From IMG/VR virus record IMGVR_UViG_3300021256_000056, positions 1 to 64,000 of that record: a stretch of DNA of 64,000 bases. One strand, 5' to 3'. Positions 38,641 to 55,625 of this stretch are shown here, piece by piece. A program made the translations under genes and the position numbers. The stretch comes from a virus. Its lineage: Duplodnaviria > Caudoviricetes. The first letter of the stretch is position 1, and each line of letters begins with the position of its first letter. A model generated the notes under the pieces. That model made no database searches. It saw only the letters and a list, made by a program, of their open reading frames with translations, and was not told the DNA's origin.

Positions 38641-38763
38641 AGAAAATCATTTAAAAGACTGGATTCGAACCAGCGTTTCCCCTGCTTTCCAGAGGCGTTC
38701 TGACCCCTAAACTACATGTCCGAAGTTTTGGTGGACACAGGTAAAACTTGCTGTTGGTTTTCT
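38641..38763 (-). ncRNA. ACAGCAA-helix RNA enclosing a permuted tRNA (acceptor 3' strand plus CCA first)
   Basis: AGAAAACC-AACAGCAA...TGTGTCCACCA-linker-GGACATG-D arm-stem-T arm...GATTTTCT. Confidence 0.7.
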
Positions 38764-38832
38764 TTATTTAAGAATATATCAAAATTGTCAAAAAATCAAT
38801 GAAAATGATAGATTTCTAATAAAGTGTCAAAA

Positions 38833-39321
38833 TTAAACTTTTAACCCGAATTTTTTGATTAAATAGCTCTTTTTTTCATCTTTGGGCATGGATACCATGT
38901 AAAGAAAATCATCACCGTGCTTATTGATATAAGCTTCTAATGTACAAATTGTTTTACAAGGAACGCCAGCAGCAACCGTATTGCTTGGTATGTCTCTGTT
39001 CACTACACTTCCCGCCCCAATAATGCTGTTATCTCCAATGGTTACTCCAGGTAAAATAACGCTCCTGCAGCCAATAAAACAATTTTTGCCAATTTTAATT
39101 GGAGCATATATTACCGTTTCTTTGTTTCCATTGGGTAAATTCCTGATAACCCTCGTAGCAGCATCGTGTGTCACAAAGGCGACATCAAAACTCACAGTTG
39201 TATTATCCCCAATCTCAATGAGATACGGCTCAGAGCCGAAATTGCATGTGCCCCCAAAACTAACGTTTTTACCAAGTCTTAAACCGTTGTTAACCGCTTC
39301 TTTTAAATTTGTTACATCCAT
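38833..39321 (-). CDS. hexapeptide-repeat sugar acetyltransferase
   Basis: FGSEPYLIEIGDN, IGKNCFIG, IIGAGSVV. Confidence 0.88.
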   Translation of the reverse strand: MDVTNLKEAVNNGLRLGKNVSFGGTCNFGSEPYLIEIGDNTTVSFDVAFVTHDAATRVIRNLPNGNKETVIYAPIKIGKNCFIGCRSVILPGVTIGDNSIIGAGSVVNRDIPSNTVAAGVPCKTICTLEAYINKHGDDFLYMVSMPKDEKKSYLIKKFGLKV

Positions 39322-39333
39322 AAATTATTGATT

Positions 39334-39409
39334 TGGAGCCCCATATTGGACTTGAACCAATAACCTCCTGATTACGAAACAGGTACTCTACCAATTGAGC
39401 TAATGGGGC
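39334..39409 (-). tRNA. tRNA-Thr(CGT)
   Basis: loop TTCGTAA; CCA encoded. Confidence 0.9.
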
Positions 39410-39414
39410 GAAAA

Positions 39415-40140
39415 CTATTCATCTTTGTCTTTTAGCGTTTTCTTTTTTCGATGAAACCTTTTACTATTCTTATTTAATGAGCCAAAGTTGGGGGTTAGGC
39501 TATGGCAATTAGGGCACAGTAGTTGCAAGTTTTCAATACGGTTATTTGTACAATCACCATCAATATGGTGAACTTCGAGAGGAACATTCCCCGTAAATTC
39601 GTTAACTTCGCCCCAGTGACATTTTTCGCATTTATTGTCGTGAAGGCTCATTAAGTATTCCTTAATAAACACTGGCACCTGTGAAGCTCCCCTCAAAAAA
39701 TTTTCTCCCCCTAGCCACCTTTCTAATTTGCTTATTTTTGGTGGGGTTTCATTTGTATATTCTTCGTATTCTCTTTCTGGAAACTTTGAACGTATGGAAT
39801 CTGAAATTTTTTTCTTGGTTTCAAAACTGCGTGGGCCACGTTTTACGTTATTATATTTCGCGGCACATGACGAGGAACAAAACTTATTGAATCTTTGTTC
39901 AAAACTCAATTTTCTCCCGCATTCTTCACAATACCTGGGATTTTTATCATATGTTTCCCTTGTTTGTTTGTTTTGATAATATTGTCCAGTAATATTCGCT
40001 TTCTGTTTTATCCTATTAATAAAACGCCAAGAAGCGCCATTGGGCCTCCTTCCAAAATAATTTATAACCTCTTTCTCGGAACAACATGCCTCGAACGCAG
40101 ATATTATTTCTTCAATAGAAATCTCTTCGACCTTTTTCAT
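39415..40140 (-). CDS. free-standing HNH homing endonuclease
   Basis: LEVHHIDGDCTNNRIENLQLLCPNCHS. Confidence 0.92.
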   Translation of the reverse strand: MKKVEEISIEEIISAFEACCSEKEVINYFGRRPNGASWRFINRIKQKANITGQYYQNKQTRETYDKNPRYCEECGRKLSFEQRFNKFCSSSCAAKYNNVKRGPRSFETKKKISDSIRSKFPEREYEEYTNETPPKISKLERWLGGENFLRGASQVPVFIKEYLMSLHDNKCEKCHWGEVNEFTGNVPLEVHHIDGDCTNNRIENLQLLCPNCHSLTPNFGSLNKNSKRFHRKKKTLKDKDE

Positions 40141-40203
40141 ACTCTTTTTTATAATAAATAGTATAAAAGGGTGAAAAAGTCAAGTCGAACCATTGTTTTT
40201 GTG

Positions 40204-40277
40204 GGTGAGTAGTCGGATTCGAACCGACGTAAACCACATCCACAGTGTGGCCCCTAAACCTCTCGGGCATACTCACC
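40204..40277 (-). tRNA. tRNA-His(GTG), G-1 genomically encoded
   Basis: CCACA-CTGTGGA-TGTGG; G-1:C73. Confidence 0.92.
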
Positions 40278-40418
40278 ATGTTTGCTGCATTAGTTATACG
40301 TATGCTGCCTGCAGCGAGCCCACGCATGGGTCCCTTATTCCGTTTCGCGGCTAACCCATGAACCGTCGTAGCATGTACCTGACTTCTGCTACGCTGTTCC
40401 TGTGCGTCAGGGTGGTTG

Positions 40419-40491
40419 AGCAGCGTAGCAGAATCGAACTGCCATCTCTAGCATGGCAAGCTAGTATAATCAACCATTATACGAACGCTGC
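40419..40491 (-). tRNA. tRNA-Gly(GCC)
   Basis: CTAGC-TTGCCAT-GCTAG. Confidence 0.9.
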
Positions 40492-40613
40492 AAATACTTC
40501 TTTTAGAACAACCCCAGAGAAGTTTAGAACTGTGCCGACCTACGATTCGGACGCTCATTTGACTTTCGTCAGGGAAGGCGCATCTTCGTTCCCGCCGCGG
40601 ACGGGCCAATAGA

Positions 40614-40889
40614 TTATTTAATTAATCGTTTCCGTTCTTCTTTGATAATCTCAAGTCCTGTTTCAATCTGTCTTAACCATTTCCCTTGTTCAGTAATTTT
40701 CGTCTCGGGAAGAGCATTCTTAAACTCGTTAAGGCTCTTTTCGGCATAATCACAGGACTCTTCGTCAAGTAAACTGTCCGCGCTAATTAAAGAAACATAA
40801 TAGAGGTTTAATAACCCAGTCTCGAACATTGTGTTGAGAAGAGTTATTATATCATTCCTAATTTCTTTTTCTGTTCTTTTCTTTTCCAT
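40614..40889 (-). CDS. hypothetical protein
   Basis: AT-rich ORF between tRNAs, start MEKKRTE. Confidence 0.6.
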   Translation of the reverse strand: MEKKRTEKEIRNDIITLLNTMFETGLLNLYYVSLISADSLLDEESCDYAEKSLNEFKNALPETKITEQGKWLRQIETGLEIIKEERKRLIK

Positions 40890-40891
40890 TG

Positions 40892-40963
40892 AGCGGGATA
40901 GCAGAATTGGACTGCCATCTTCAGCTTGGAAGGCTGACATAATAACCGTTATACGAATCCCGC
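40892..40963 (-). tRNA. tRNA-Gly(TCC)
   Basis: TCAGC-CTTCCAA-GCTGA. Confidence 0.88.
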
Positions 40964-40969
40964 AATTAG

Positions 40970-41042
40970 TTGTCGTTACCTGATTCGAACAGATATTTCC
41001 AGGTTCAGAGCCTGGCGTCCTCAACCGTTGGACGAAACGACA
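40970..41042 (-). tRNA. tRNA-Gln(CTG)
   Basis: CCAGG-CTCTGAA-CCTGG. Confidence 0.9.
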
Positions 41043-41422
41043 ATTTTAGTAATCCAAATCACTTCTGGGTGTTCTCCAAAAACCGTGTGTGTGACATTAC
41101 ATAGCCATACGGTTAAAATGGGGGCAGCGTCCTCAGAGACTACGGCATCCATTATCTCATTAAATAAATAGCCACTTAATGAATATGTTGCTCCATCATC
41201 ATCATGTTTAAGTCTCGTTAACTTCAATAAACACTGCTTCGGCTCATCAATATTTAGAATAAATCCCGATTCCATTTCAACTTCGAAAGAATCTTTTCCC
41301 TTCGAGAGCAGCTCACACATTTCATCGGCCCCTAAAACCATCTCATTATCTTCAAGACTATGCTCTGGAACGTCGGCATACCAACGCCCGTCTTGCTTGA
41401 AAAATTTGAGTTTCGTTTTCAT
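41021..41422 (-). CDS. conserved hypothetical protein
   Basis: WYAD.P...EMVLGAD...WLCNVTHTVFGEHP; ends inside tRNA-Gln. Confidence 0.7.
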   Translation of the reverse strand: MKTKLKFFKQDGRWYADVPEHSLEDNEMVLGADEMCELLSKGKDSFEVEMESGFILNIDEPKQCLLKLTRLKHDDDGATYSLSGYLFNEIMDAVVSEDAAPILTVWLCNVTHTVFGEHPEVIWITKIVVSSNG

Positions 41423-41426
41423 ATCG

Positions 41427-41502
41427 TCGAGTAGACAGGGCTCGAACCTGCATGAATCTCCACATCCCAAATGTGGCGAGGAACCAATTCCTCCACTACT
41501 CG
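41427..41502 (-). tRNA. tRNA-Pro(TGG)
   Basis: CCACA-TTTGGGA-TGTGG. Confidence 0.9.
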
Positions 41503-42101
41503 ATATGTGGACTCGATTTTTGGTTTTGTATAGCGGTACCAACTACTACGTATTCCACATGTTTTATCGTGCCAAGTCCTCACACGAACCGATATTTTAA
41601 GTGCTCGGTATGCAGTATCGTCCTTCCTGCTTCCATTACACTTTGCGCAACCGTTGGGCGTCGAACCCAAAGCCTTCTGTAGTACTTTCGCCATTAAGCT
41701 GTTAGCAAAAGCAGGTGGTATTGCACTCACCGCGACGGGAGCTACCCGTAATCCATTGTTCGGTTGCGTTTGCCAAGGAAGATGGATTCGAACCATCATT
41801 CACGCATTGTGTGATTGCGCCACCGCTTATTCCTTATTATTTACACACAAAGTAATATTCAGCGGAATCCCCTTGTGGATAGGGGCGGTTTGCCATTGTC
41901 CTACTCCTTGTTTAAATGCATTACCTGCCCTGACCTCTATATGCTTTTACATAATGTTTTGAATTCTTCAATTTTGAAGTTCTGCATTTTGATACAATGC
42001 CTGGGCGCTTCTTGTGAAGCCTTTGGGTTGCCGATGTTGCTCTGTTTGCCATTTTCTTAATTTTTCACAAATATACATTTATTTTTTATAAAAATCAATA
42101 G

Positions 42102-42216
42102 TCGGGGAAGAAGGAATCGAACCTCCGCTAACGGCACCCAAAGCAATTTGACGCTGCTGTTAGTTTTCAATACTGAAAACATTTAAAACGTCGTGCTACC
42201 ACTACACTATTCCCCA
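42102..42216 (-). tRNA. tRNA-Pro(TGG) interrupted by a 44-nt ACAGCAG-helix insert (42145-42188) at position 29/30
   Basis: removing the insert restores ACG|GC-TTTGGGT-GCCGT. Confidence 0.85.
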
Positions 42217-42223
42217 AAATTTG

Positions 42224-42340
42224 TGAGGAGGATGGGACTCGGACCCATGACCCACGGGTTAAAAGCCAAGGTGAGGTTGCTGTTAGTTTTCAGTACAGAA
42301 AACGTTTTATACGTTGCTCTACCAACTGAGCTACCTCCTC
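42224..42340 (-). tRNA. tRNA-Lys(TTT) interrupted by a 44-nt ACAGCAA-helix insert (42268-42311) at position 29/30
   Basis: removing the insert restores ACG|GG-CTTTTAA-CCCGT. Confidence 0.87.
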
Positions 42341-42347
42341 AAAATTG

Positions 42348-42393
42348 CGACGATAGGAGGAGTCGAACCTCCAATCATGCCAAATCTATCGTC
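42348..42393 (-). ncRNA. tRNA minihelix (acceptor stem and T arm only)
   Basis: GACGATA-14nt-GGAGG TTCGACT CCTCC-TATCGTC-G. Confidence 0.65.
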
Positions 42394-42428
42394 AACCGTC
42401 AACTTAAGACAACGTGTTACCACGTTTG

Positions 42429-42511
42429 TGGCCCCTGTGGGACTCGAACCCACACCCCATTGCTGGGAGTAGATTTTGAGTCTACCGCGTATACCATTCC
42501 GCCAAGGGGCC
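42429..42511 (-). tRNA. tRNA-Leu(CAA)
   Basis: GTAGA-CTCAAAA-TCTAC. Confidence 0.93.
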
Positions 42512-42615
42512 ATAAATAAAGAAGCCAGGCAACACTGCGACATTTTCAGAGTTTTTGTGACCACTTTGCTGGTACCCTACTTAAGTGGTTGCCCTACCAA
42601 CCTCGGGCTTCTTAG

Positions 42616-42689
42616 TACCCCCTGTAGGATTCGAACCTACGACCCGCAGATTAGAAATCTGCTGCTCTGTCCAACTGAGCTAAGAGGGC
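42616..42689 (-). tRNA. tRNA-Arg(TCT)
   Basis: GCAGA-TTTCTAA-TCTGC. Confidence 0.93.
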
Positions 42690-42694
42690 TTTTG

Positions 42695-42769
42695 TGCTCC
42701 TAGAAGGACTCAAACCTTCAACCTTATCCTTAGGACGGATTTGCGCTGATTCAATTGCGCCATAGGAGC
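42695..42769 (-). tRNA. tRNA-Arg(CCT)
   Basis: loop GTCCTAA. Confidence 0.85.
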
Positions 42770-42777
42770 ATTTGTTG

Positions 42778-42880
42778 CGGCAGTAAACCGAATCGAACGG
42801 CTATCAACCACCGACGGTGGTCATTCTTCGTGCGGGTTTCATTTAATTGCAGCTGCACAATACCCATTAAACTATACTGC
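42778..42880 (-). ncRNA. aberrant tRNA-like RNA
   Basis: GGCAGTA/TACTGCC acceptor and T arm; central region non-canonical. Confidence 0.55.
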
Positions 42881-42886
42881 CATTTG

Positions 42887-43010
42887 TTGCGGGTGAGGGA
42901 GTCGAACCCCCGTCTTTTCGTTATGGGTGAAATTACGATGTAAGTTGCCGCAAGATTTCCATGCGAAAACCTTTTTTGCTTTTACATGCTAACCATTGCA
43001 CTAACCCGCA
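42887..43010 (-). tRNA. tRNA-Met(CAT)-like with a variant helix insert (GCGGCAA) before the anticodon arm
   Basis: TGCGGGT/ACCCGCA; GGTTTTC-GCAT-GGAAATC-TTGCGGCAA; loop CCCATAA. Confidence 0.65.
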
Positions 43011-43018
43011 ATATTGTG

Positions 43019-43421
43019 TGGAGATGGGCGGACTCGAACCGCCGTTTTTCAAGCTTGCAAACTGCTTTCTACGCGCTTAGTTTTCTTTATGATTCGTTGG
43101 GCACTGGTGGAAAACACACCTGAGTACTCAATATATCATTCTGGAAACGTAGCCAAACCAGACGAATGAAACTGGCCTGCCGCTCTCGATTTGATGATGC
43201 CCTCATATTGTGAATTCAACCAAGACCAAACATTCACGAGGACAATCGTCCCGACACATCCTAGGTGCCGATGGATTAGGCTTATTTGCTTAGCAAATTA
43301 AGCGGCGATTGCATAGGTGTTGTTGCCAACTAATTTTTTTGATATTTGTTTAAAGGCTAAAAATCAAAACGCCTGCGTGCTTACAATCCTCATAGATTGA
43401 AATCAAAACCAAAACATCCCC
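43019..43421 (-). ncRNA. ssrA: tmRNA, tag (A)GNNTYAIAA
   Basis: 5' GGGGATG, 3' GGTTCGAGTCCGCCCATCTCCA with G3:U70; tag ORF GGC AAC AAC ACC TAT GCA ATC GCC GCT TAA. Confidence 0.95.
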
Positions 43422-43430
43422 ATGTTTTTG

Positions 43431-43503
43431 TACCCGATACAGGACTCAAACCCATACTCTGGGAGCCGTATTCCCAAGTTCTATTCAGTTAAACTAATCG
43501 GGC
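43431..43503 (-). tRNA. tRNA-Arg(ACG)
   Basis: TGGGA-ATACGGC-TCCCA. Confidence 0.85.
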
Positions 43504-43645
43504 TTTTTATTTTATTTTCATTTTCTCTATATTCCTTTTTTCTATATCTTCTTACCGAAGAATCATTCCTGCTTCCAAAATTTTCTGTCATTGCATGGCA
43601 ATTTGGACATAAAACTTCTATGTTTTCTTCTGTTACATTTGTTTA
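43494..43645 (-). pseudogene. HNH endonuclease C-terminal remnant
   Basis: translates TNVTEENIEVLCPNCHAMTENFGSRN; N-terminus missing. Confidence 0.8.
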
Positions 43646-43676
43646 TTAATAAATAATTAGATAAGAAAGATTTGAG

Positions 43677-43750
43677 AGCCCTCAGTCGGAGTCGAACCAA
43701 CACTTCATCCATACCACAGATGCGTACTCAGCCTTTAATACGATGAGGGC
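43677..43750 (-). tRNA. tRNA-Thr(GGT)
   Basis: CATCT-GTGGTAT-GGATG. Confidence 0.85.
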
Positions 43751-43855
43751 AAATCGCCAGGTGAAGCTAACCTGGCCCCCGTGAACTACCAGCCAGCCCT
43801 GCACCACGGGTGTTGATATGAGTACTGGTTGCATATCAACTTACAAGCTTACTTG

Positions 43856-43930
43856 TGCTCCCGATGGGACTCGAACCCATAACCCACTGTTTAAGAGACA
43901 GTTGCGCTCAACCAATTGCGCCACGAGAGC
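43856..43930 (-). tRNA. tRNA-Lys(CTT)
   Basis: ACTGT-CTCTTAA-ACAGT. Confidence 0.93.
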
Positions 43931-43940
43931 AGTTATTATG

Positions 43941-44012
43941 TAGCGGATAGGAGAGTCGAACTCCTCTCTCAAGATTGAGAATCTTACGTCCTAACCGATA
44001 GACTAATCCGCC
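43941..44012 (-). tRNA. tRNA-Glu(CTC)
   Basis: loop TTCTCAA; near-duplicate of Glu(TTC) at 47243. Confidence 0.9.
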
Positions 44013-44505: not shown

Positions 44506-45341
44506 CCTACCCAATATAGTTGCCTATACCATCTTACGATGTTTGAGTTTGGACCATTTCTTATCCATGCCACTTCGTGGTTTAGGTGGTGGTGTATGGC
44601 CTCTACACATTTATGCAAAAAAGCAATTTAGCCCGACGTTTTCCCAGGGGGATGTTCGTCGAATTAGCCACCATTCACGACAAGGGTTTCCCCTCGTGTG
44701 CTCCTTTCTTAGATTCACGTAAACATGAAATGCATAACCCGCTTTTAGTTTCCCTATGAAGCGGTTTTCCACATTTTTTGCACACGTGTTTGTACGTGTG
44801 GGTGTGTGTGGTTGTTTTAACCCCCTTCATATTTTTCTTTCCAGCGTAACTATCTGTTTGTGAATGGCAATTAGGACACAAAATCACTAGATTGTCGAGT
44901 TCATTATTAAAATGGTCTCCATCTTTATGATGAACTTGCAACGTTATGCTTTTACCATGCCACTCAGAAATTCCGCATTCTGGATTTTCGCACTTATATT
45001 CTTTCAGCCCCAATGAAATTAGTTTTTTCATTAATTCCGAAGATTTTATAAGTTTGTCTTTAACAAAAAAATCCTCTTTGTCTAGACCGTTGTGATTTTT
45101 ATTTCCGATGTTCGATTTTTGTCCAGTGAAATGTGAGGTATCTAGGTCGTATTCTTTCACGTATTTGTAAAACGTTCTATAATTACCACCAACAGGTTTC
45201 CATCCCACAGCACGACAAAAATCAGCAACACTAAAAACACGTTTACATATCTCTATTGCCTCTTCTTTACCAATTACATTTTTTGTCATAATAACACTTT
45301 TATAATAAATAGTGTTTAATTGGTAAAAGTAAGAAGATTTG
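44506..45341 (-). mobile_element. group I intron (IC3-like) with HNH ORF
   Basis: P/Q/R/S-like AATTCGACGAA, GTCGGGCTAA, GTGTAGAGGCC, AAGAAATGGTCC; terminal G after GGTAG. Confidence 0.85.
44675..45289 (-). CDS. intron-encoded HNH homing endonuclease
   Basis: LQVHHKDGDHFNNELDNLVILCPNCHS. Confidence 0.92.
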   Translation of the reverse strand: MTKNVIGKEEAIEICKRVFSVADFCRAVGWKPVGGNYRTFYKYVKEYDLDTSHFTGQKSNIGNKNHNGLDKEDFFVKDKLIKSSELMKKLISLGLKEYKCENPECGISEWHGKSITLQVHHKDGDHFNNELDNLVILCPNCHSQTDSYAGKKNMKGVKTTTHTHTYKHVCKKCGKPLHRETKSGLCISCLRESKKGAHEGKPLS

Positions 45342-45475: not shown

Positions 45476-45483
45476 ATATTTTG

Positions 45484-47880: not shown

Positions 47881-47947
47881 GGGAAACATTTTTACGTATG
47901 TTCAGAAAGAAAGTCGGAATTTTAGTAAATTTTGCTGTTAGTTTCCC
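47881..47947 (-). ncRNA. ACAGCAA-helix RNA with Glu(TTC)-like loop
   Basis: GGGAAAC-TAACAGCAA...TTCCGA-CTTTCTT-TCTGAA...GTTTCCC. Confidence 0.7.
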
Positions 47948-47952
47948 TTTAG

Positions 47953-48074
47953 AGCTGATGCAAGGAATCGAACCTCGGTCTGCGGCTTGGAATGCATTTC
48001 TTGATTTTTGCTGTCCGTAACCTTGTCAGAATACCTTATTTGAAAACGCTGTGCTACCACTACACCACATCAGC
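47953..48074 (-). tRNA. tRNA-Gly(TCC) interrupted by a 51-nt ACAGCAA insert (47996-48046) at position 29/30
   Basis: removing the insert restores GCG|GC-ATTCCAA-GCCGC. Confidence 0.83.
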
Positions 48075-49156: not shown

Positions 49157-49157
49157 G

Positions 49158-49232: not shown

Positions 49233-49564
49233 GTTTCTCACCTAAGACTAACGCGCTAATCTGTCATTCGCAATGCACTAGGTGTATAACTTTTTTTATA
49301 CGTGCAGTTCTAACCCCCTTCGTGACCCCTCAGTGCTACTATAGTCGCCCTATATTTGGATTACTGACGATACCCTACACCTACTCATCACGCCATTTAA
49401 CCGTGGCTCTCTCGCATTGTTCCAATCTACGAGAGGCCCCCCCACGGTGAGGCCGTTAGTCGGATTTGACTTGAGCAAGAAGTCTGAATTGAACAGCAAG
49501 TTCCGTCCTTACGTAGCGAACAAGGGACGGACGTCTCCCGAACCTGGGTATCTTGCTAAAAAAT

Positions 49565-49716
49565 GTGTAACCAGAAATCAGAAATGTTTTACTCTACCTA
49601 CTGAGCTACATGGGAAGAATACCGTAACTCCCACGGAGGGACTCGAACCCTCGTCCTTAGTTTTACAGACTTACAAACAATTAATGAACTTGCTGTAAGA
49701 TTTCTTCACGTTACAC
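49565..49716 (-). ncRNA. ACAGCAA-helix RNA enclosing a circularly permuted tRNA-Tyr(GTA)-like module
   Basis: order: helix, ACAGCAA, CTGTAAA loop, T arm, acceptor hairpin, D arm, helix. Confidence 0.8.
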
Positions 49717-49732
49717 GGTGATGGTATTTTTG

Positions 49733-50123: not shown

Positions 50124-50235
50124 GGGAAGCGTTTTACGTCCAACGGACGGGGGCGGACTTGAACCGCCGAACCTCTCAAGTTCTGATTTTCAGTCGGAAT
50201 TGTTAAACCTTTGTTGAGATTGCTGTGTGCTTCCC
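50124..50235 (-). ncRNA. ACAGCAA-helix RNA with Phe(GAA) loop, T arm and closed acceptor-like hairpin
   Basis: GGGAAGC-ACACAGCAA...CTGAAAA...GGCGG TTCAAGT CCGCC...CGTCC-GTT-GGACG...GCTTCCC. Confidence 0.78.
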
Positions 50236-50240
50236 TGTTG

Positions 50241-50325
50241 CAGGCGCTGGAGGATTCGAACCCCCGAGGAATTTAATCCTGCTGGTTTTGGAGACCAGTG
50301 CCTTCGACCGCTCGGCCAAGCGTCT
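50241..50325 (-). tRNA. tRNA-Trp(CCA) with long variable arm
   Basis: CTGGT-CTCCAAA-ACCAG; A1:U72, G73; 16-nt variable region. Confidence 0.85.
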
Positions 50326-51028
50326 GTATATATTCCATTAATCCTTTTTTATCGAATGGTAGTCCGTAATGCTTAAACCATTTTCTTATAGCATTATCCG
50401 ACACTCCAAAAGACTTTCCGACTTGTAAAAAACTTCTTTTAACTAAAAAAAGATTAATTAAAGTTTCTTTTGATGGGTGATTTCTTTCCCATGCGCATTC
50501 TCGCGCTTCTATCCAATCTTCTTTGTTTGTGTGTCTTTTCTTTACTATGGTTTTAGTAGTGGATTCGTATTTATTTGAATTTTTTCCTGCATAAGTATCC
50601 GTTTGTGAATGACAATTTGGGCATAATAACATGAGATTTTCAATCCTATTATCGTCATGTATACCATTGATATGGTGGAGTTGTAATGATATCGGTTTAC
50701 CATTCCATTCGCAAATTCCACATTGTGGATTCTCACACTTATTTTCTTTTAAGCCACACTCAATTAGTCTTTTTTTTAGCCGACTTTTGTTTGTGTATAA
50801 ACTATGTTCAACTAGAATGTCATCCATGGGAATTTTTTCTCTGTAGCTTTTTGTCATTCGTTTATAAGAGAATCTTAATTCCAGCCCGAGTTCCTTTGCA
50901 AGCGCCCTTACCTCTTTATAATCTTCCCCGCCAACGTTTTCTATTCCGAGTCTATGACAAAGGTCCAACATATTAACACATTTGTCGTAATTTTCAATTA
51001 ACCTGTCTATCGCGTATTCTCGATTCAT
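50273..51028 (-). CDS. free-standing HNH homing endonuclease with C-terminal HTH
   Basis: LQLHHINGIHDDNRIENLMLLCPNCHS; FGVSDNAIRKW; ORF runs into tRNA-Trp. Confidence 0.92.
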   Translation of the reverse strand: MNREYAIDRLIENYDKCVNMLDLCHRLGIENVGGEDYKEVRALAKELGLELRFSYKRMTKSYREKIPMDDILVEHSLYTNKSRLKKRLIECGLKENKCENPQCGICEWNGKPISLQLHHINGIHDDNRIENLMLLCPNCHSQTDTYAGKNSNKYESTTKTIVKKRHTNKEDWIEARECAWERNHPSKETLINLFLVKRSFLQVGKSFGVSDNAIRKWFKHYGLPFDKKGLMEYIQTLGRAVEGTGLQNQQD

Positions 51029-51216
51029 AATATTCTTTTTATTATAAATAGTATGAAAAGAGAAAAATCGAACCTTTTTGGAAATTTTTATTTAGTTCGA
51101 ATATATAATGAAAAATGAATTTTCCTCTAAGGGGAGTAGTCTAACTCCCCAGTGTGTTTTATGACCTTTTCAGCAAACCAATGTAAAAACCCAATAACTA
51201 TGGTTGTAAAAATTTC

Positions 51217-51281
51217 GGAAATCTGTTTTTCAGAATATTAGATTAAAAGTCTAGTCCTTGATAAATTGCTGTAAGATTTCC
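51217..51281 (-). ncRNA. ACAGCAA-helix RNA with Lys(TTT) anticodon stem-loop
   Basis: GGAAATCT-TACAGCAA...TAGA-CTTTTAA-TCTA...AGATTTCC. Confidence 0.8.
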
Positions 51282-51283
51282 TC

Positions 51284-51374
51284 TGGCGGAGAGGCTGGGA
51301 TTCGAACCCAGGGGACGCTCAACACGCCCAACGGTTTTCAAGACCGCCGCTATCGACCACTCAGCCACCTCTCC
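51284..51374 (-). tRNA. tRNA-Ser(TGA)
   Basis: GCGGT-CTTGAAA-ACCGT; CCA encoded. Confidence 0.93.
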
Positions 51375-51383
51375 ATTAAATTT

Positions 51384-51453
51384 GAACTGCAAAAGGATTC
51401 GAACCTTTACCCGTGGACTATGCCCGCGTGTCCTGTCCATTAGACGATACAAT
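51384..51453 (-). pseudogene. degenerate tRNA
   Basis: D and T arms intact; loop GCATAGT lacks U33. Confidence 0.55.
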
Positions 51454-51525
51454 TTTTTATCGCAGTAAAGAGGCCACCACTGATTTAACACGGCATCAGC
51501 AATGACAACCACTACGCCACGTGTG

Positions 51526-51604
51526 CTGGGGTATGGTGATTCGAACACCAATTATTCTCACGCCCTTAGGGCTTGAGGCGGTACTACCGTTGTACTACAC
51601 CCCA
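51526..51604 (-). ncRNA. Gln-type tRNA body with extended anticodon arm (CCCTAAG apex)
   Basis: U1:A72, G73; CTCAAGCCCTAAGGGCGTGAG. Confidence 0.65.
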
Positions 51605-51725
51605 GTTTATGTCTCTCCAAAGTCACGCCACTTTTGGGTATTTATATCGCGGGGGCAGGTGTCGCCCTCGCTTATGGTAATTTATCTCAATATTGTCAAA
51701 GAACGTGTGTTCCGAAGAACTCTGG

Positions 51726-51778
51726 TGCAAATATATATGTAATTTTTCAAACTACAAAATATTTTTGCATTTTTTTTT
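51726..51778 (-). promoter_or_regulatory. duplicated promoter of the RNA island (second copy ~56856-56906)
   Basis: about 50-bp near-identical repeat with TTTG (-33) and TATATTTG (-7), followed by boxA-like GTTCTTTGA. Confidence 0.75.
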
Positions 51779-51780
51779 TG

Positions 51781-51857
51781 TCTAGGAGATGAGACTCGAA
51801 CTCACATTATCCTGGCTCCTGACCAGGCAACCTCACATCCAATTGGTTTACTCCTAG
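51781..51857 (-). tRNA. tRNA-Pro(AGG)
   Basis: CCTGG-TCAGGAG-CCAGG; C1:G72, A73; C33. Confidence 0.75.
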
Positions 51858-51872
51858 TTATATTTCAATTTG

Positions 51873-51956
51873 TGGCCCCGACGGGACTCGAACCCGTAAC
51901 CCTCGGTTTAAAAGACCGATGCGCTCGCTTTCGCTATCCATTTGCGCCACGAGGCC
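51873..51956 (-). tRNA. tRNA-Lys(TTT) with 10-nt D-loop expansion
   Basis: TCGGT-CTTTTAA-ACCGA; D loop carries GCGAAAGCGA. Confidence 0.82.
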
Positions 51957-52052
51957 GTTCCATTTTTCTCGGAAGCCTCGCATCACAATCGGGGCTTCAC
52001 ATTAATATTTCTGTTTTATACGTTTCATGTTTCTATTTTATTTCTTTTCTTG

Positions 52053-52140
52053 CTGGCCAGGAAGGATTCGAACCTCCAACCTTTGACACATCTAAAGCCT
52101 TTAGGGCAGTGCCTGCTCTCCCATTTGGAGCTACTAGCCA
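52053..52140 (-). ncRNA. Gln-type tRNA body with extended anticodon arm (CCCTAAA)
   Basis: TGGCTAG/CTGGCCA-G; GGCACTGCCCTAAAGGCTTTAGATGTGTC. Confidence 0.65.
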
Positions 52141-52184
52141 GTTCTTTTGACAGTTTTTGGCATGCCACTGACAAACCGACAGGT

Positions 52185-52258
52185 ACTGGGTGACGGAATC
52201 GAACCGACATCAGATGCTTGAAAGGCACCTCGCCTCAACCATTAGCAGATTAACCCAG
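52185..52258 (-). tRNA. divergent tRNA-Glu(TTC)-like gene
   Basis: AGGTGC-CTTTCAA-GCATCT; imperfect acceptor stem. Confidence 0.55.
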
Positions 52259-52266
52259 CATGTATT

Positions 52267-52530
52267 TTAATGAACTAAATGTTTAAATTTTTCCAATTTC
52301 AATTTCGCTTCTTCTCTATCTTCCTCGGTCAAAAGTCTATTTGTACTCCCCACGTGCCACTTATCACACTTTGAACATTTATAAGCCACCATCTTATGTA
52401 ATATGTTTTCACAAGTATTAAGGAACCTGGCCGTTGTCAGAGCATCCATCTCAGTATCGTAGCTCTTTTTGGGGACCAATTTGTCTCCCTCAATCTTATA
52501 ATGGCTTCTTATTGTTCTTTTTTCATCCAT
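52267..52530 (-). CDS. small Zn-ribbon protein
   Basis: AYKCSKCDKWHVG; preceded by a sigma54-like promoter. Confidence 0.7.
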   Translation of the reverse strand: MDEKRTIRSHYKIEGDKLVPKKSYDTEMDALTTARFLNTCENILHKMVAYKCSKCDKWHVGSTNRLLTEEDREEAKLKLEKFKHLVH

Positions 52531-52544
52531 ACGAAATTCATAAT

Positions 52545-52560
52545 GCAAATTTCGTGCCAA
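52545..52560 (-). promoter_or_regulatory. sigma54 (-24/-12) promoter
   Basis: TTGGCACGAAATTTGC. Confidence 0.7.
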
Positions 52561-52984
52561 AGTTTTCTTTTTCTAAAAATTTCTTCAAAAAAACCTCCAG
52601 AGAGTTTTGGGGAACATCTTTGGAGGCGTGGAATATAGTGTCGGTCTAAACCGTGTGGTGCTATGTATTATGCATCTGTTCCCATTATTCCTCCTCCTAG
52701 TCCTTTAAATGGCCATGCGCCGAGGCGTTCCTCTGACTTTCTAATGCTGACATATAGGCATGGGCAATCAAGGCTGCTCTTGTGGGAGCCTCCCATGACG
52801 TTTGTATTATTGCTCAGCATAACCATTTTGTACCTATTTTTCAATTATAAATATATGATAAAATCGAAAAAACTAAAATTCTGTGCAAATATATATGCTT
52901 TTTTTGTAAAAATCAACAAAAAACAAAAAAAAAGAGCGAATTTTTTAGATTCGCTCAATACGTTTATCACTGTTTATTCAAATC

Positions 52985-53323
52985 TTACCTACCAGCAGCG
53001 AGTATGTATGAGGCAATCATTTTTCCCCAAGCATCGTCTCTAGGGATTGAGAATTCACCACCGTTATCCCAATCGTACCCTGTTGGTGCCCACATAATTG
53101 TTATGTGGTCGTAACTTGGCATAAGACGGTACATCTTTCCAGACTTTCCCCTTACCTCAAAATCTTGGTGTCCTTCTTTTGATACACGTTCTCCGTAGAT
53201 GTCGTCCATTATTTCTTTTGAAGGAATGGGGTTATCTGTCCACTCATTTAGCACTTTTTTAACGCTTTCTTTAACTATTTTACGAAGCTGTGATTCGTTG
53301 AGATTTATAGTATTCTTTTTCAT
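52985..53323 (-). CDS. hypothetical protein with large-phage N-terminal LNESQLRKIVKESV motif
   Basis: motif, upstream ACTATTTAT. Confidence 0.7.
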   Translation of the reverse strand: MKKNTINLNESQLRKIVKESVKKVLNEWTDNPIPSKEIMDDIYGERVSKEGHQDFEVRGKSGKMYRLMPSYDHITIMWAPTGYDWDNGGEFSIPRDDAWGKMIASYILAAGR

Positions 53324-53395
53324 GTGCTTTTAATTTTCTTATAAATAGTTTGTTGAAACAAAAAAGCCTCAGATTTATCTGAGGCTTATAGGAAC

Positions 53396-53462
53396 GGAAA
53401 ACTTTTTGTTAAAATTCGAAGTTTGGAATCGGATTTGGTCTAATATTTGCTGTCGGTTTTCC
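53396..53462 (-). ncRNA. ACAGCAA-helix RNA with Trp(CCA)-like loop
   Basis: GGAAAAC-CGACAGCAA...TTCCAAA...GTTTTCC. Confidence 0.68.
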
Positions 53463-53476
53463 TATTTTTGTCTGTT

Positions 53477-53794
53477 TTAGTCTTCAAAGTATTCCTTGAT
53501 AAGTGCCTTAATGGTTTCAAGTTCTACTTCCCTGTCGCGGAGTTCGAGAGCGAGATTGATACGTTTGCGTACCCAGTCCTTGGTGTTGAGGTTTTCTCCG
53601 ACGATGAGGCTCTGTGTGCTTCTCACTGAGAGGTCTTCCATGGAGACAATCTCATTGTTGATGGTGCGGATGCACTTTTCGACTGAACGCTTTTCATCTT
53701 CAAAGACGTCCTTGGTCTCTTCGGTGACATTCTGTGCCCTTTTCTGAATAAGGTTGTCACCAGTGTTTGTTAAGATTTGAGTAAATTTTCCCAT
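53477..53794 (-). CDS. coiled-coil hypothetical protein
   Basis: 105 aa ORF. Confidence 0.65.
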   Translation of the reverse strand: MGKFTQILTNTGDNLIQKRAQNVTEETKDVFEDEKRSVEKCIRTINNEIVSMEDLSVRSTQSLIVGENLNTKDWVRKRINLALELRDREVELETIKALIKEYFED

Positions 53795-53795
53795 A

Positions 53796-54137
53796 TTATT
53801 TGCTGTTTATTACGTGTCTATGCTGGAGTTTATAAAGTCCTGGAACGATTTCGATGCTTGCGTGCGATTCTGATTCCCAGTCTTCGATTGTGTTATCAAT
53901 CTTCTCGATTATGCTTCCTCCGTCGTGTCGCAAAACTTCGTGCATGATTGCAATCTCACGTTTAGTTTCTAATTCCCGATGGACTTTCTCTGGGAGGGCT
54001 GCAGCAAGTGTTGCGTAGTCATTAGAGCTAAGGCTGACCTGCACTGTTACGTTATGGTCTCTCGCATCGCTTTCGCAAGTCACAAGGACGTTATCTCCGT
54101 AATCGTTAGTCGCAGTTAAGTTATTAATATTAGTCAT
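53796..54137 (-). CDS. hypothetical protein
   Basis: 113 aa ORF. Confidence 0.6.
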   Translation of the reverse strand: MTNINNLTATNDYGDNVLVTCESDARDHNVTVQVSLSSNDYATLAAALPEKVHRELETKREIAIMHEVLRHDGGSIIEKIDNTIEDWESESHASIEIVPGLYKLQHRHVINSK

Positions 54138-54154
54138 GTTTTTCGTAAATTTTG

Positions 54155-54226
54155 TGCTCCATACAGGAATCGAACCCGTCTAAGAACGTTTTAGGGACGC
54201 CCGCTCGGCCACTGAGCCAATGGAGC
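54155..54226 (-). tRNA. amber suppressor-like tRNA (CTA)
   Basis: GCTCCAT/ATGGAGC-A; GGCGT-CCCTAAA-ACGTT; C33. Confidence 0.75.
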
Positions 54227-54234
54227 AGAAAGAC

Positions 54235-54295
54235 AGGAAACATTAAAATCAACATTATCAGTGTTTATTTGACGAAAGGTTGCTGTGTGTTTCCT
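54235..54295 (-). ncRNA. ACAGCAA-helix RNA with Ile(GAT) anticodon stem-loop
   Basis: AGGAAACA-CACAGCAA...AACA-CTGATAA-TGTT...TGTTTCCT. Confidence 0.78.
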
Positions 54296-54311
54296 TATCT
54301 TAATGTTTCGT

Positions 54312-54602
54312 TTATTGAACCAACTTAAGTCCTTTAAACATTTCACCCGAATCTTCAACCGCAATTGCCGTAAGGCTATTGTTTAAATCGGGCTCGTAGA
54401 ACGCAGAATAAGTCTTATGTTTGTCCCTCAATCTCTGTCTCCATTTCTCAACGTCGGCGTAGAGATATATAAGGTACTCATTATTCCATTGTTGCTGTGG
54501 GTTATCCAAAAGATATTGTGCAACTGCGTGCCCACCTTGAACGCAGGCGTAAACGGGGTTGAGTCGTTTACTCACCAGCACGTACAATCTCTTCGCAGAC
54601 AT
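54312..54602 (-). CDS. peptidyl-tRNA hydrolase PTH2-like protein
   Basis: LYVLVSKRL...VQGGHAV...FYEPDLNNSLTAIA. Confidence 0.7.
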   Translation of the reverse strand: MSAKRLYVLVSKRLNPVYACVQGGHAVAQYLLDNPQQQWNNEYLIYLYADVEKWRQRLRDKHKTYSAFYEPDLNNSLTAIAVEDSGEMFKGLKLVQ

Positions 54603-55023
54603 CGGTATACACTTTAATCGTTTCTTCCCCCCAGTATGTTTTACAATTTTTTTCCTCATAGACTTTTAACTGATAACCATAGGTTTTCAGATAACTATTA
54701 ATCTCATCAGAATAAAGGAACAAGGGGTGTTTTCCTTCGAGGTGGTCAGCCAAGCGATATCCAGTTTGGCGGTAGTAGTCTTCTTTGTTAAGAGGCTTCG
54801 CCTTATTTTCTATCTGCTCAAACTTTCTTCCTCTCATTAACCCATATGCCGCATACATTGCCCTTAGGGTGTCTTTATTACTAGAAACCTTCCAGCAGGC
54901 TTCATACGGTTGCATTGTCCTTTCGGTCTTTAGGTTAACAGTTTTTCTTTGTTCTTTTGCTTTTCTTTGTTCCACCTCCAAGGCGGCGATTTCCTTACGG
55001 AATTCAATAATTTCTTGTTTCAT
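54568..55023 (-). CDS. hypothetical protein
   Basis: LRAMYAAYGLMRGRKFEQIE; directly upstream of the PTH2-like gene. Confidence 0.7.
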   Translation of the reverse strand: MKQEIIEFRKEIAALEVEQRKAKEQRKTVNLKTERTMQPYEACWKVSSNKDTLRAMYAAYGLMRGRKFEQIENKAKPLNKEDYYRQTGYRLADHLEGKHPLFLYSDEINSYLKTYGYQLKVYEEKNCKTYWGEETIKVYTDVCEEIVRAGE

Positions 55024-55093
55024 AATGTTGTTTGGTTTTAATCATTTTATTTTTGGCTCTCGCCGACAAATTCCACTTTCAAATCAAACACCA

Positions 55094-55126
55094 TTAAGGT
55101 GGAACTGGATTAACCTAGTGTTTCAT
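55094..55126 (-). promoter_or_regulatory. leader uORF MKH-amber-VNPVPP-ochre
   Basis: ATG AAA CAC TAG GTT AAT CCA GTT CCA CCT TAA with A-rich leader. Confidence 0.55.
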
Positions 55127-55158
55127 AACGATAATTGTTAAGTTTGTTATTAAAAATA

Positions 55159-55468
55159 AAAAGAACACTACGGTAGGATTACTGATTACCTACAAATACT
55201 CTACAAGCGCGTTATTCAGTCACACCCAAGAAGGTTAGCTACGCCTACTTTTAAAAGGGTGAGGGGAATGCTTACCCCCAAACGGATACAGCCATCAGTC
55301 ACTGTAACTACGATTTGTCCGTTTCTTACGTCACTCTCGGTTGGCCAACCGAGGCTACTTCAACCTTACGCTTCGTGTTGCCCTCTAACCGCCTCCTGAA
55401 CTTTTCAGTCCAGGCTAACGTACCTTATGGGCAGGCTACCCATTGTTCGGTCACAAAGTGTTCTTTTT
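55159..55468 (-). ncRNA. candidate ~300-nt structured RNA
   Basis: terminal pairing AAAAGAACACT/AGTGTTCTTTT, GC-rich hairpins, own promoter, no credible ORF. Confidence 0.55.
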
Positions 55469-55567
55469 ATGATGGGTCGCCCCGCCATAAATTTTCTTTT
55501 TTTTAAAGAGCTTTTACAAAAATACGACCTTTTAATTAAAAAAGCAAGGTCTTTTAATAAAAAAAAC

Positions 55568-55625
55568 GGAAAACTTTTTTGTGACGCAGTATTATCAGTA
55601 CTTCCAAAATTGCTGTAAGTTTTCC
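55568..55625 (-). ncRNA. ACAGCAA-helix RNA with Ile(GAT) anticodon stem-loop
   Basis: GGAAAACT-TACAGCAA...AGTA-CTGATAA-TACT...AGTTTTCC. Confidence 0.8.

What the first reader, a model, noticed from the sequence alone, without database searches (positions are those of the whole stretch)
38641..55625. Twelve-copy ACAGCAA-helix RNA family that displays tRNA anticodon loops
Seen: on the transcribed strand a 6-8 bp helix (GGAAAYC paired with GRTTTCC, with compensatory changes such as GGGAAGC/GCTTCCC) is followed by NN-ACAGCAA. It occurs 12 times: 38641, 42145, 42268, ~42930, 47881, 47996, 49565, 50124, 51217, 53396, 54235 and 55568. In 11 of 12 copies an anticodon-like loop lies 11-26 nt 3' of ACAGCAA: Pro TGG, Lys TTT twice, Met CAT, Glu TTC, Gly TCC, Tyr GTA, Phe GAA, Trp CCA, Ile GAT twice. 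Three topologies are used: an insert in a full tRNA, the clamp of a permuted tRNA, and the clamp of a bare anticodon stem-loop. A separate tRNA gene without the module exists for each anticodon. Known: host anticodon nucleases (PrrC, RloC, PARIS AriB, VapC) cut such loops, and bacterial YrlA Y RNAs join a protein-binding helix to a permuted tRNA module. Inference: a protein-tethered panel of anticodon decoys or sensors against tRNA-cleaving defences, or substrates of a new splicing route. I recognise no named family for it.
Basis: partly seen in the sequence, partly recalled or inferred. Interest (0 to 1): 0.95.

Follow-up and report, generated by a model that had tools for sequence, protein, structure and literature searches.

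The report
Handle-tagged tRNA mimics of phage Ro60
A giant gut or rumen phage scatters twelve small RNAs through its tRNA genes, all sharing a short stem plus ACAGCAA that most likely docks a Ro60-like ring protein, which makes them an undescribed, tRNA-shaped relative of Y RNAs.

Summary
All 12 copies lie at the stated coordinates on the minus strand, in three topologies: a 44-51 nt insert at anticodon-stem position 29/30 of four tRNAs, a clamp around three permuted or truncated tRNA bodies, and a clamp around five bare hairpins. The family is widespread. I collected 227 unique elements from IMG/VR jumbo phages, including cultured Yersinia fHe-Yen9-04-like phages. The helix covaries strongly and ACAGCAA was fixed by my search pattern. 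No Rfam family matches.

Best reading (0.6): the stem plus ACAGCAA is the docking site of a phage Ro60-like protein (DUF2828+DUF7788). The predicted fold matches Ro60 at Z 16. The gene is present in 22 of 22 complete handle-bearing genomes. The handle itself sits in that gene's own 5' leader in 12 of 23 genomes checked. The RNAs are then Y-RNA-like tRNA mimics, not introns.

The decoy or sensor idea stays untested. This 53%-complete record lacks the Ro-like gene, and no RNA data could be laid.

One reader claim fails: tRNA-Lys(UUU) has no uninterrupted gene.

The rival reading, a splicing or circularisation signal, keeps about 0.2.

This scan has met the same family before on other DNA (103 notes in at least 87 genomes), with the same reading. 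I reached it independently first.

The parts
38641..38763 (-). Clamp copy 1. Handle AGAAAA(C)-CA-ACAGCAA (heptamer 38748-38754) and closing strand UUUUCU enclose a permuted tRNA-like body: acceptor 3' strand, ACCA, linker, acceptor 5' strand, D arm, anticodon-like arm, T arm.
42145..42188 (-). 44-nt handle insert (N8, GUUUUC, 6-nt loop, GAAAAC, UA, ACAGCAG, N9) after anticodon-stem nt 29 of tRNA-Pro(UGG), whose body is 42102-42216.
42268..42311 (-). 44-nt handle insert at 29/30 of tRNA-Lys(UUU), body 42224-42340. This is the only Lys-UUU gene in the record.
42887..43009 (-). tRNA-like gene (CAU loop, C33) carrying a hairpin handle with the variant heptamer GCGGCAA (42945-42951). ARAGORN and the Rfam tRNA model both miss it.
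47881..47947 (-). Bare clamp copy directly 3' of the Gly tRNA: GGGAAAC-UA-ACAGCAA, 44 nt (loop CUUUCUU), GUUUCCC, then a U-run.
47996..48046 (-). 51-nt insert with ACAGCAA (48008-48014) at 29/30 of tRNA-Gly(UCC), body 47953-48074. The helix of this copy is weak.
49573..49705 (-). Clamp around a circularly permuted tRNA-like body: GUA loop, T arm, acceptor closed by a 12-nt linker, D arm. It has no long variable arm, so it is not a bacterial-type tRNA-Tyr.
50124..50235 (-). Clamp (GGGAAGC/GCUUCCC) around an anticodon arm (CUGAAAA), a T arm and a 5-bp closed acceptor hairpin, with no D arm. It lies directly 3' of tRNA-Trp.
51217..51281 (-). Bare clamp copy directly 3' of tRNA-Ser(UGA). Payload hairpin UAGA-CUUUUAA-UCUA.
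53396..53462 (-). Bare clamp copy. The payload has a UUCCAAA stretch but only a weak stem.
54235..54295 (-). Bare clamp copy just upstream of suppressor tRNA(CUA). Payload AACA-CUGAUAA-UGUU.
55568..55625 (-). Bare clamp copy. Payload AGUA-CUGAUAA-UACU, followed by a U-run.
8653..9507 (-). Thg1-like 3'-5' nucleotidyltransferase gene. It belongs to the tRNA-repair kit that travels with the handle family. The link is by association only.
11515..12744 (-). RlaP (PF10127) RNA-repair nucleotidyltransferase gene, shared with the distant handle-bearing phages G7 and G3. The link is by association only.

Best explanation
The twelve elements belong to a widespread, unannotated family of jumbo-phage RNAs built from a constant 'handle' and a variable body.

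The handle is a 6-8 bp helix (consensus RGAAWN / NWUUCY, with covarying distal pairs). On its 5' strand it is followed, after 1-3 nt, by a single-stranded heptamer: ACAGCAA in 10 of the 12 window copies, ACAGCAG and GCGGCAA in the other two. The opposite strand is A-rich.

The handle most likely is the docking site of a phage-encoded Ro60-like ring protein (DUF2828+DUF7788, i.e. TROVE-like HEAT ring plus vWA). The RNAs would then be Y-RNA-like partner RNAs.

The body takes three forms. It can be a whole tRNA with the handle grafted as a hairpin at position 29/30 of the anticodon stem. It can be a circularly permuted tRNA with the handle formed by the two ends, which is YrlA topology but with the anticodon arm kept. 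Or it can be only an anticodon-arm-like hairpin. All three are circular permutations of one three-dimensional object.

The same handle, or a weakened variant, in front of the Ro-like gene's ribosome-binding site probably lets the protein repress its own translation.

Shown here: the family, its covariation, its spread, the Ro60-like predicted fold of the protein, the co-occurrence, and the leader copies.

Inferred: physical binding; that the RNAs stay unspliced; and that the particle works with the co-encoded tRNA-repair kit (Thg1-like, RlaP, CCA-adding enzyme, RNA ligase) in tRNA surveillance or repair, or in mimicry against anticodon nucleases.
For: (1) Family and structure. Of these, 157 have a perfect 6-bp clamp and 26 a perfect hairpin. 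Helix pairs covary: bp1 A:U 83 / G:C 70; bp5 A:U 81 / U:A 80; bp6 and bp7 use all four Watson-Crick types.

(2) Partner protein. The AF2 model (pLDDT 83.9, pTM 0.82) matches three Ro60 structures over the whole length: phage phiLo Ro60 9l5y Z 16.1, Xenopus Ro60 1yvp Z 16.0 and Rsr 2nvo Z 15.1. vWA-only hits reach Z 10.3 at most. PHROG 850 'RNA-binding protein' matches at 1e-50.

(3) Co-occurrence. DUF7788 is present in 22 of 22 handle-bearing records that are at least 90% complete (one of the 23 complete records with the gene, G023, turned out handle-free). It is present in only 2 of 19 unselected 64-157 kb phage records. It is one of only 29 proteins shared by two very distant handle-bearing phages.

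(4) Handle in the Ro-like gene's own leader. An exact stem-NN-ACAGCAA-loop-stem-G lies 30-63 nt before the ATG in G004, G017, G019 and G041, and about 150 nt before it in G024. A conserved variant (AGAAGUG-ag-UCAACAA-N10-13-CAUUUCU) abuts the RBS in all 7 enterobacterial-clade genomes. About 0.1 such elements are expected by chance.

(5) Bare minis are conserved with compensatory changes across phage genera: UUCU/AGAA versus UCAU/AUGA. They are therefore functional without any tRNA to splice.

(6) Acceptor stems of permuted bodies are often sealed by UACG, UUCG or GAAA tetraloops.

(7) Topology matches YrlA. Relatives give sub-threshold full-length RF02553 hits (44.7 and 37.5 bits) through the T arm, acceptor and D arm.

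(8) Normal tRNA genes of these phages rarely repeat an anticodon (in this record only CAU). Handle-bearing genes mostly do repeat one.

(9) In fHe-Yen9-04 the Ro-like gene lies 450 nt downstream of an annotated RNA ligase gene.
Against: No binding or expression data exist.

The Ro-like gene is absent from this 195 kb record, which is only about 53% complete. Its partner is therefore inferred from the related phage G7.

The handle motif differs from the canonical Ro60 site GNCGAA(N)G / GGUCCGA (PMC4201824).

Two genomes (G004, G023) have the protein but no tRNA-linked handle cluster. The Bacteroidetes-type clade that includes G7 has no leader copy.

The negative controls are few, and they are smaller phages.

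Four copies are otherwise perfect tRNAs, and one of them is the only Lys-UUU gene. That fits an intron reading as well.
Confidence: 0.6

Rival explanations
1. The handle is a cis-acting processing signal of discontinuous tRNA genes. A phage or host endonuclease cuts at both handle-body junctions, and an RNA ligase (RtcB or Rnl1 with healing enzymes) joins nt 29 to nt 30. This splices the four interrupted tRNAs and circularises the permuted ones. Cutting the linker, followed by Thg1-like and CCA-adding enzymes, would then mature them, as in the Cyanidioschyzon permuted tRNA pathway.
For: The insert always sits at the same site, and its removal restores perfect 5-bp anticodon stems.

Sixty-eight clamp elements elsewhere are complete permuted tRNAs, most often broken at 29/30 (33 cases).

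Some linkers begin with NCCA.

The only Lys-UUU gene is interrupted.

Nearly identical inserts occur in two different tRNAs of G001, which suggests intron-like mobility.

The four complete handle-bearing genomes tested for RtcB and Rnl1 each encode one of them. Thg1-like is present in 20 of 22 complete handle-bearing genomes.

From established ribosome structures (my own knowledge): the P-site contacts anticodon-stem pairs 29-41 and 30-40, so an unspliced graft could hardly translate.
Against: Bare minis cannot yield a tRNA, yet they are conserved with covariation.

Handles occur in the Ro-like gene leader with no tRNA part at all.

Many acceptors are sealed by stable tetraloops.

The distance from the handle to the would-be splice sites varies: 8-10 or 17-19 nt on one side, 9-11 or 14-17 nt on the other.

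The flanks are not complementary, so there is no bulge-helix-bulge. No splicing endonuclease (PF01974) was found in this record.

Most handle-bearing tRNAs duplicate an intact gene.
Confidence: 0.2
2. The element is a small self-cleaving ribozyme that trims tRNA 3' trailers, analogous to the HDV-like theta ribozymes found next to phage tRNAs.
For: Several copies start 2-3 nt after a tRNA 3' end: 47938, 50226 and 51272 here, and others in G001 and G003. The heptamer is a conserved single strand beside a helix.
Against: No ribozyme family matched in Rfam, at gathering thresholds or in E-value mode.

The minimal leader versions are a 6-7 bp stem with a loop of only about 19 nt.

The payload varies freely in length and sequence.

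The architecture is not a nested double pseudoknot.

Hairpin-type copies sit inside tRNAs, where 5'-end cleavage would destroy them.
Confidence: 0.05
3. The elements are selfish, decaying mobile insertions or tandem-duplication scars of tRNA genes. They would be spread by the HNH homing endonucleases of the array and have no function of their own. Some would double as terminator hairpins.
For: Three HNH genes lie in the array. Near-identical inserts occur in different tRNAs. There is a gradient from full to truncated bodies. U-runs follow several clamps.
Against: The heptamer ACAGCAA and a covarying helix recur in phage clades that share only 29 detectable proteins. Orthologous minis are conserved with compensatory changes. 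Some copies in G003 and its relatives have their own promoters. The handle is placed specifically in the Ro-like gene leader.
Confidence: 0.07

Closest known systems
Ro60/Rsr with Y RNAs, especially tRNA-like YrlA (Rfam RF02553; Chen et al. 2014, PMC4201824) and phage Ro60-Yrl particles (Thermus phage phiLo, PMC12135203)
   Same: Both have a ring-shaped Ro60-fold protein with a vWA domain. In both, small RNAs have 5' and 3' ends that form a stem carrying a conserved motif on the 5' strand. Both have a tRNA-like body in permuted order (T arm, closed acceptor, D arm). Both are linked genomically to RNA ligase and RNA-repair genes.
   Different: The motif is ACAGCAA beside an RGAAWN helix, not GNCGAA(N)G / GGUCCGA / CGAA. 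The protein is DUF2828+DUF7788 and is not detected by Pfam TROVE. There are 8-14 RNA copies per genome scattered in the tRNA array, instead of 1-2 beside the gene. The bodies keep a full anticodon arm. The handle is also grafted as a hairpin into otherwise normal tRNAs, and it occurs in the protein's own mRNA leader. Binding has not been shown.
Permuted tRNA genes of Cyanidioschyzon merolae and non-canonical archaeal tRNA introns (review PMC4090602)
   Same: The 3' half of the tRNA lies upstream of the 5' half, and the leader and trailer pair with each other. Inserts also occur at a non-canonical site, 29/30.
   Different: There is no bulge-helix-bulge and no splicing endonuclease gene. The host is bacterial. 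Many acceptors are sealed by tetraloops. The same module also clamps bare hairpins and mRNA leaders.
'Enigmatic' tRNA introns of Lak megaphages (Devoto et al. 2019, PMC6784885, Table S6)
   Same: These are short unexplained inserts in the tRNA genes of huge gut phages, conserved across cohorts.
   Different: The one Lak intron sequence I saw (tRNA-Tyr, 93 nt) lies in the anticodon loop and holds a tRNA-like piece. ACAGCAA does not occur in the Table S6 file as held, which was cut when stored. A separate insert of that kind also exists in this window (55640-55830).
HDV-like theta ribozymes next to phage tRNAs (Kienbeck et al. 2024; recalled from my own knowledge, not read here)
   Same: Both are small structured RNAs placed right after the 3' ends of phage tRNAs, in phages that may be recoded.
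   Different: There is no HDV-like double pseudoknot and no Rfam ribozyme hit. The handle also lies inside tRNAs and in mRNA leaders.

Membership tests
YrlA / Y RNA (RF02553) | Score at or above the Rfam gathering threshold (69 bits) | tested here: not met
   No YrlA hit in the window at gathering thresholds. Relatives reach only 44.7 and 37.5 bits, and only through the tRNA-like part.
YrlA / Y RNA (RF02553) | Conserved Ro60-binding motif GNCGAA(N)G (CGAA) on the 5' strand of the terminal stem | tested here: not met
   The 5' strand carries RGAAWN-NN-ACAGCAA instead. The canonical motif is as given in PMC4201824 and PMC12135203.
YrlA / Y RNA (RF02553) | tRNA-like module in permuted order (T arm, closed acceptor, D arm) held by a stem formed from the 5' and 3' ends | tested here: met
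   Window copy 49573-49705, and partly 50124-50235 and 38641-38763. Sixty-eight full cases elsewhere.
YrlA / Y RNA (RF02553) | Encoded together with, and bound by, a Ro60 orthologue | tested here: inconclusive
   A Ro60-fold gene is present in 22 of 22 complete handle-bearing genomes, and handles lie in its leader. The gene is absent from this incomplete record. Binding cannot be tested with these tools.
Ro60 / TROVE protein family (for the partner protein) | HEAT-repeat ring plus C-terminal vWA fold | tested here: met
   VIA-align Z 16.1, 16.0 and 15.1 to 9l5y, 1yvp and 2nvo, over 398-430 residues.
Ro60 / TROVE protein family (for the partner protein) | Match to the Pfam TROVE model PF05731 | tested here: not met
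   No match in 5 genomes at E <= 0.01. The protein matches DUF2828 and DUF7788 instead.
Archaeal/eukaryal-type tRNA intron or Cyanidioschyzon-type permuted tRNA | Bulge-helix-bulge at the exon-intron (or leader-trailer) junctions | tested here: not met
   The flanks next to the junctions are both A/U-rich and not complementary to each other.
Archaeal/eukaryal-type tRNA intron or Cyanidioschyzon-type permuted tRNA | Splicing endonuclease (PF01974) available | tested here: not met
   None in the 195 kb record, which is incomplete. Bacterial hosts are not known to have one (my own knowledge).
Archaeal/eukaryal-type tRNA intron or Cyanidioschyzon-type permuted tRNA | Spliced or circular RNA products | not testable with these tools
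Group I intron in tRNA | Intron of roughly 200 nt or more with a P1-P9 core and an Rfam Intron_gpI match | tested here: not met
   The inserts are 44-51 nt, and there is no Rfam hit.
Small self-cleaving ribozymes (HDV-like, hammerhead, twister, hatchet, pistol) | Match to the family covariance model or core | tested here: inconclusive
   No hit at gathering thresholds in the window, and none at E <= 5 in 8 relatives' loci. A new ribozyme class is not excluded by this.

The most novel reading that the evidence does not exclude
The Ro60-like ring and its handle form an RNA cut-and-join platform. It would excise the handle from interrupted tRNAs and circularise permuted ones, or swap displayed anticodon arms into nuclease-damaged tRNAs, using the co-encoded ligase, RlaP, Thg1-like and CCA-adding enzymes. 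That would be the first protein-dependent tRNA splicing or permuted-tRNA pathway in bacteria and their viruses.
Probability: 0.2. Interest if true: 0.95.

Novelty: new variant of a known kind. Interest (0 to 1): 0.8.

Why it matters
Ro60-Y RNA particles are known from animals, some bacteria and a few phages, and their function is still debated.

This would be a second, sequence-unrelated handle and protein pair with the same architecture. It is multi-copy, grafted onto real tRNA shapes, and common in jumbo phages, including cultured Yersinia, Serratia, Erwinia and Cronobacter phages where it can be tested at once.

It would explain many 'tRNAs with introns' and unannotated gaps in phage tRNA arrays. 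It would assign a role to DUF2828/DUF7788. It would also tie phage tRNA arrays to RNA repair and to the arms race with anticodon nucleases.

If instead the RNAs are spliced, that would be a new tRNA-splicing route in the bacterial world.

Tried and rejected
- RNA evidence. One run search found 3 RNA runs holding 7-12% of the sampled words.
- Plain 14-16-mer scans of IMG/VR gave mostly chance hits. Anchoring on the T arm fixed this.
- A single-protein search for relatives with the radical SAM gene found one locus only.
- RtcB, Rnl2-type ligase, splicing endonuclease, TROVE and DUF2828 searches of the record itself were all negative. The record is only 53% complete, so this does not show absence.
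- ARAGORN intron mode misplaces the inserts. I replaced it with an explicit parse.
- Foldseek against the PDB saw only the vWA domain. VIA-align wide was needed to find Ro60.
- The genome-contig scan with the Ro-like alignment returned only 4 MAG contigs with close relatives of the phage protein, probably phage contigs binned into MAGs. None had a handle within 10 kb.
- A search for a wider 'operator regulon' in front of other genes found essentially chance matches.
- A trans-acting RNA carrying UUGCUGU: the only candidate is the GC-rich stretch at 49233-49560. It has no Rfam hit and no relatives.
- No covariance model was built. Regex and pairing parses served instead.
- Complex prediction was not used, because it takes no RNA.

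Full report
SETTING

The window is the first 64 kb of a 195 kb IMG/VR virus record, estimated 53% complete. All genes read on the minus strand. Between 38.0 and 57.0 kb lie 35 ARAGORN tRNAs, a tmRNA, a suppressor tRNA(CUA) and several over-long Rfam tRNA hits. HNH endonuclease genes are interspersed.

OBSERVATION

ACAGCAA is over-represented: 18 occurrences against 8.9 +/- 2.8 in shuffles. Ten minus-strand copies in the array share the same context. A 6-8 nt strand is followed by 1-3 nt and then ACAGCAA, with the complementary strand either 38-110 nt downstream or just upstream as a hairpin. Two more copies have variant heptamers, ACAGCAG and GCGGCAA.

Four copies are inserts placed after the third base of the anticodon-stem 5' strand of otherwise complete tRNAs. 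These are Pro-UGG, Lys-UUU, Gly-UCC and a CAU tRNA-like gene. Three copies clamp permuted or truncated tRNA bodies. Five clamp bare hairpins.

Eleven copies carry an anticodon-like heptaloop, of which about eight are canonical.

THE FAMILY IS LARGE

The pattern recurred in clusters in two other IMG/VR phages. All three topologies were present there. Some permuted copies had their own sigma70-like promoters. Two different tRNAs held near-identical inserts.

Most lie on 100-412 kb contigs. One record is identical to Yersinia phage fHe-Yen9-04. Close matches exist in Erwinia, Serratia and Pectobacterium jumbo phages, where the elements are not annotated.

Of the 227 elements, 157 have a perfect 6-bp clamp and 26 a perfect hairpin. 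The helix covaries:
- bp1: A:U 83, G:C 70
- bp5: A:U 81, U:A 80
- bp6 and bp7: all four Watson-Crick types

An explicit parse showed 68 complete circularly permuted tRNAs. Their commonest break is 29/30, the same site as the inserts.

No Rfam family matches. Relatives give only sub-threshold YrlA hits, carried by the permuted T arm, acceptor and D arm. I found no paper on this. The Lak megaphage introns are a different type, as far as the held Table S6 shows.

FINDING THE PARTNER

I downloaded two complete handle-bearing genomes. G7 is related to this phage: 119 of its ORFs hit this record. G3 is an enterobacterial jumbo phage that shares only 29 detectable proteins with G7.

Besides structural and replication proteins, those 29 include:
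- a Thg1-like enzyme
- RlaP
- a CCA-adding enzyme
- TyrRS
- IF3
- a metallophosphoesterase
- a 540-aa DUF2828+DUF7788 protein (PHROG 850 'RNA-binding protein')

Thg1-like, RlaP and the phosphoesterase are also encoded in this window.

An AlphaFold2 model of the DUF2828 protein (pLDDT 83.9) aligns over its whole length with three Ro60 structures at Z 15-16. This is clearly above the vWA-only matches. Pfam TROVE does not see the protein.

The gene is present in 22 of 22 handle-bearing records that are at least 90% complete. The one handle-bearing record without it is 82% complete. It is also present in two large genomes that have no tRNA-linked handle cluster. Among 19 unselected 64-157 kb phage records it occurs in 2. 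Thg1-like is present in 20 of the 22. Iyer et al. call it sporadic in jumbo phages, and call ROT/TROVE proteins a small subset (PMC7824862).

THE DIRECT LINK

One of the two unselected records with the gene has a complete handle 63 nt before the gene's ATG.

I then fetched the upstream regions of the gene in 20 further genomes, making 23 with G7, G3 and that record:
- Exact stem-NN-ACAGCAA-loop-stem-G elements lie 30-63 nt before the start codon in four genomes, and about 150 nt before it in two.
- All seven enterobacterial-clade genomes carry a conserved variant (AGAAGUG-ag-UCAACAA-N10-13-CAUUUCU) that ends at the ribosome-binding site.
- About 0.1 such elements would be expected there by chance.

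In fHe-Yen9-04 this variant abuts the annotated RBS of g176 'RNA-binding protein', which follows an RNA ligase gene. The minimal leader versions are just a 6-7 bp stem with ACAGCAA at the 5' side of a loop of about 19 nt. The handle therefore works without any tRNA part. The simplest reading is a protein operator.

WHY UNSPLICED MIMICS RATHER THAN INTRONS

- Bare minis are conserved across genera with compensatory stem changes.
- Many permuted acceptors are sealed by UACG, UUCG or GAAA tetraloops.
- The distance from the handle to the would-be splice sites varies.
- There is no bulge-helix-bulge and no splicing endonuclease.
- Handle-bearing tRNAs mostly duplicate an intact gene, whereas normal genes rarely repeat an anticodon.

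Against this reading:
- Four copies are perfect tRNAs once the insert is removed.
- One of them is the only Lys-UUU gene.
- Some linkers start with NCCA.
- The phages own ligases and end-repair enzymes.

I therefore keep splicing or circularisation at about 0.2, and note that the two readings could be combined.

FUNCTION

By analogy with Ro60-Y RNA and with the Salmonella rsr-yrlBA-rtcBA repair operon, the particle probably acts in tRNA surveillance or repair, or as a mimic towards anticodon nucleases. Nothing here tests that. The non-canonical payload loops of the enterobacterial minis (YGGAUAU) argue against a simple 'anticodon panel'.

LIMITS

- No RNA data could be laid.
- The Ro-like gene is not in this incomplete record.
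- The controls are few.
- Binding is inferred, not shown.

EARLIER NOTES OF THIS SCAN

A late look-up showed that the scan has met this family before on other DNA (103 notes in at least 87 genomes), with the same reading. I reached the reading independently, and those notes are not counted as evidence.

Noticed in passing
window 54154-54226 (-) and 43018-43421 (-): A suppressor tRNA with anticodon CUA (ARAGORN calls it 'Pyl') and a phage tmRNA (tag GNNTYAIAA) lie in the array. The phage may read TAG as sense in part of its genome. I did not test this.
   Followed up: no
window 49233-49560 (-): A GC-rich stretch of about 320 nt with no sense-strand ORF of 50 aa or more lies between the permuted GUA copy and tRNA-Val. 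It contains UUGCUGU, the complement of ACAGCAA. It has no Rfam hit at E <= 1 and no BLAST relative in G1, G3, G7 or L193.
   Followed up: partly
window 55983-56090 (-): A 108-nt Rfam tRNA hit carries a different insert of about 35 nt in the anticodon region. The insert holds a GUUUC...GAAAC helix but no ACAGCAA.
   Followed up: no
window 55640-55830 (-): A Met-type tRNA is split in the anticodon loop by an insert of about 109 nt that contains its own T arm and tRNA-like piece. This resembles the Lak megaphage insert type and is the subject of another note of this scan.
   Followed up: no
window 42775-42881 (-): A second tRNA-like gene that ARAGORN misses lies directly downstream of the CAU handle gene. 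It has an acceptor stem, D arm and T arm, but an oversized central region.
   Followed up: no
window 8653-9507, 11515-12744, 62917-63750 (all -): Thg1-like, RlaP and metallophosphoesterase genes. All three are among only 29 proteins shared with a very distant handle-bearing phage.
   Followed up: partly
window 39415-40140, 44675-45289, 50273-51028 (-): Three HNH endonuclease genes are interspersed in the tRNA array. They could drive gene conversion and spread of the inserts.
   Followed up: no
G003 80003 and 80192; L285, L287, L301: In enterobacterial jumbo phages the 5' leader of two promoter-driven permuted copies is complementary to the linker that closes the acceptor stem (for example AUAAGGCAG with CUGCCUUAU). 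This may be a pseudoknot or an alternative fold.
   Followed up: partly
NC_042116 100148-103380 (L531): In Yersinia phage fHe-Yen9-04 the Ro-like gene g176 follows an annotated RNA ligase gene (g174) and a small ORF. The arrangement recalls the bacterial rsr-rtcB repair operons.
   Followed up: partly
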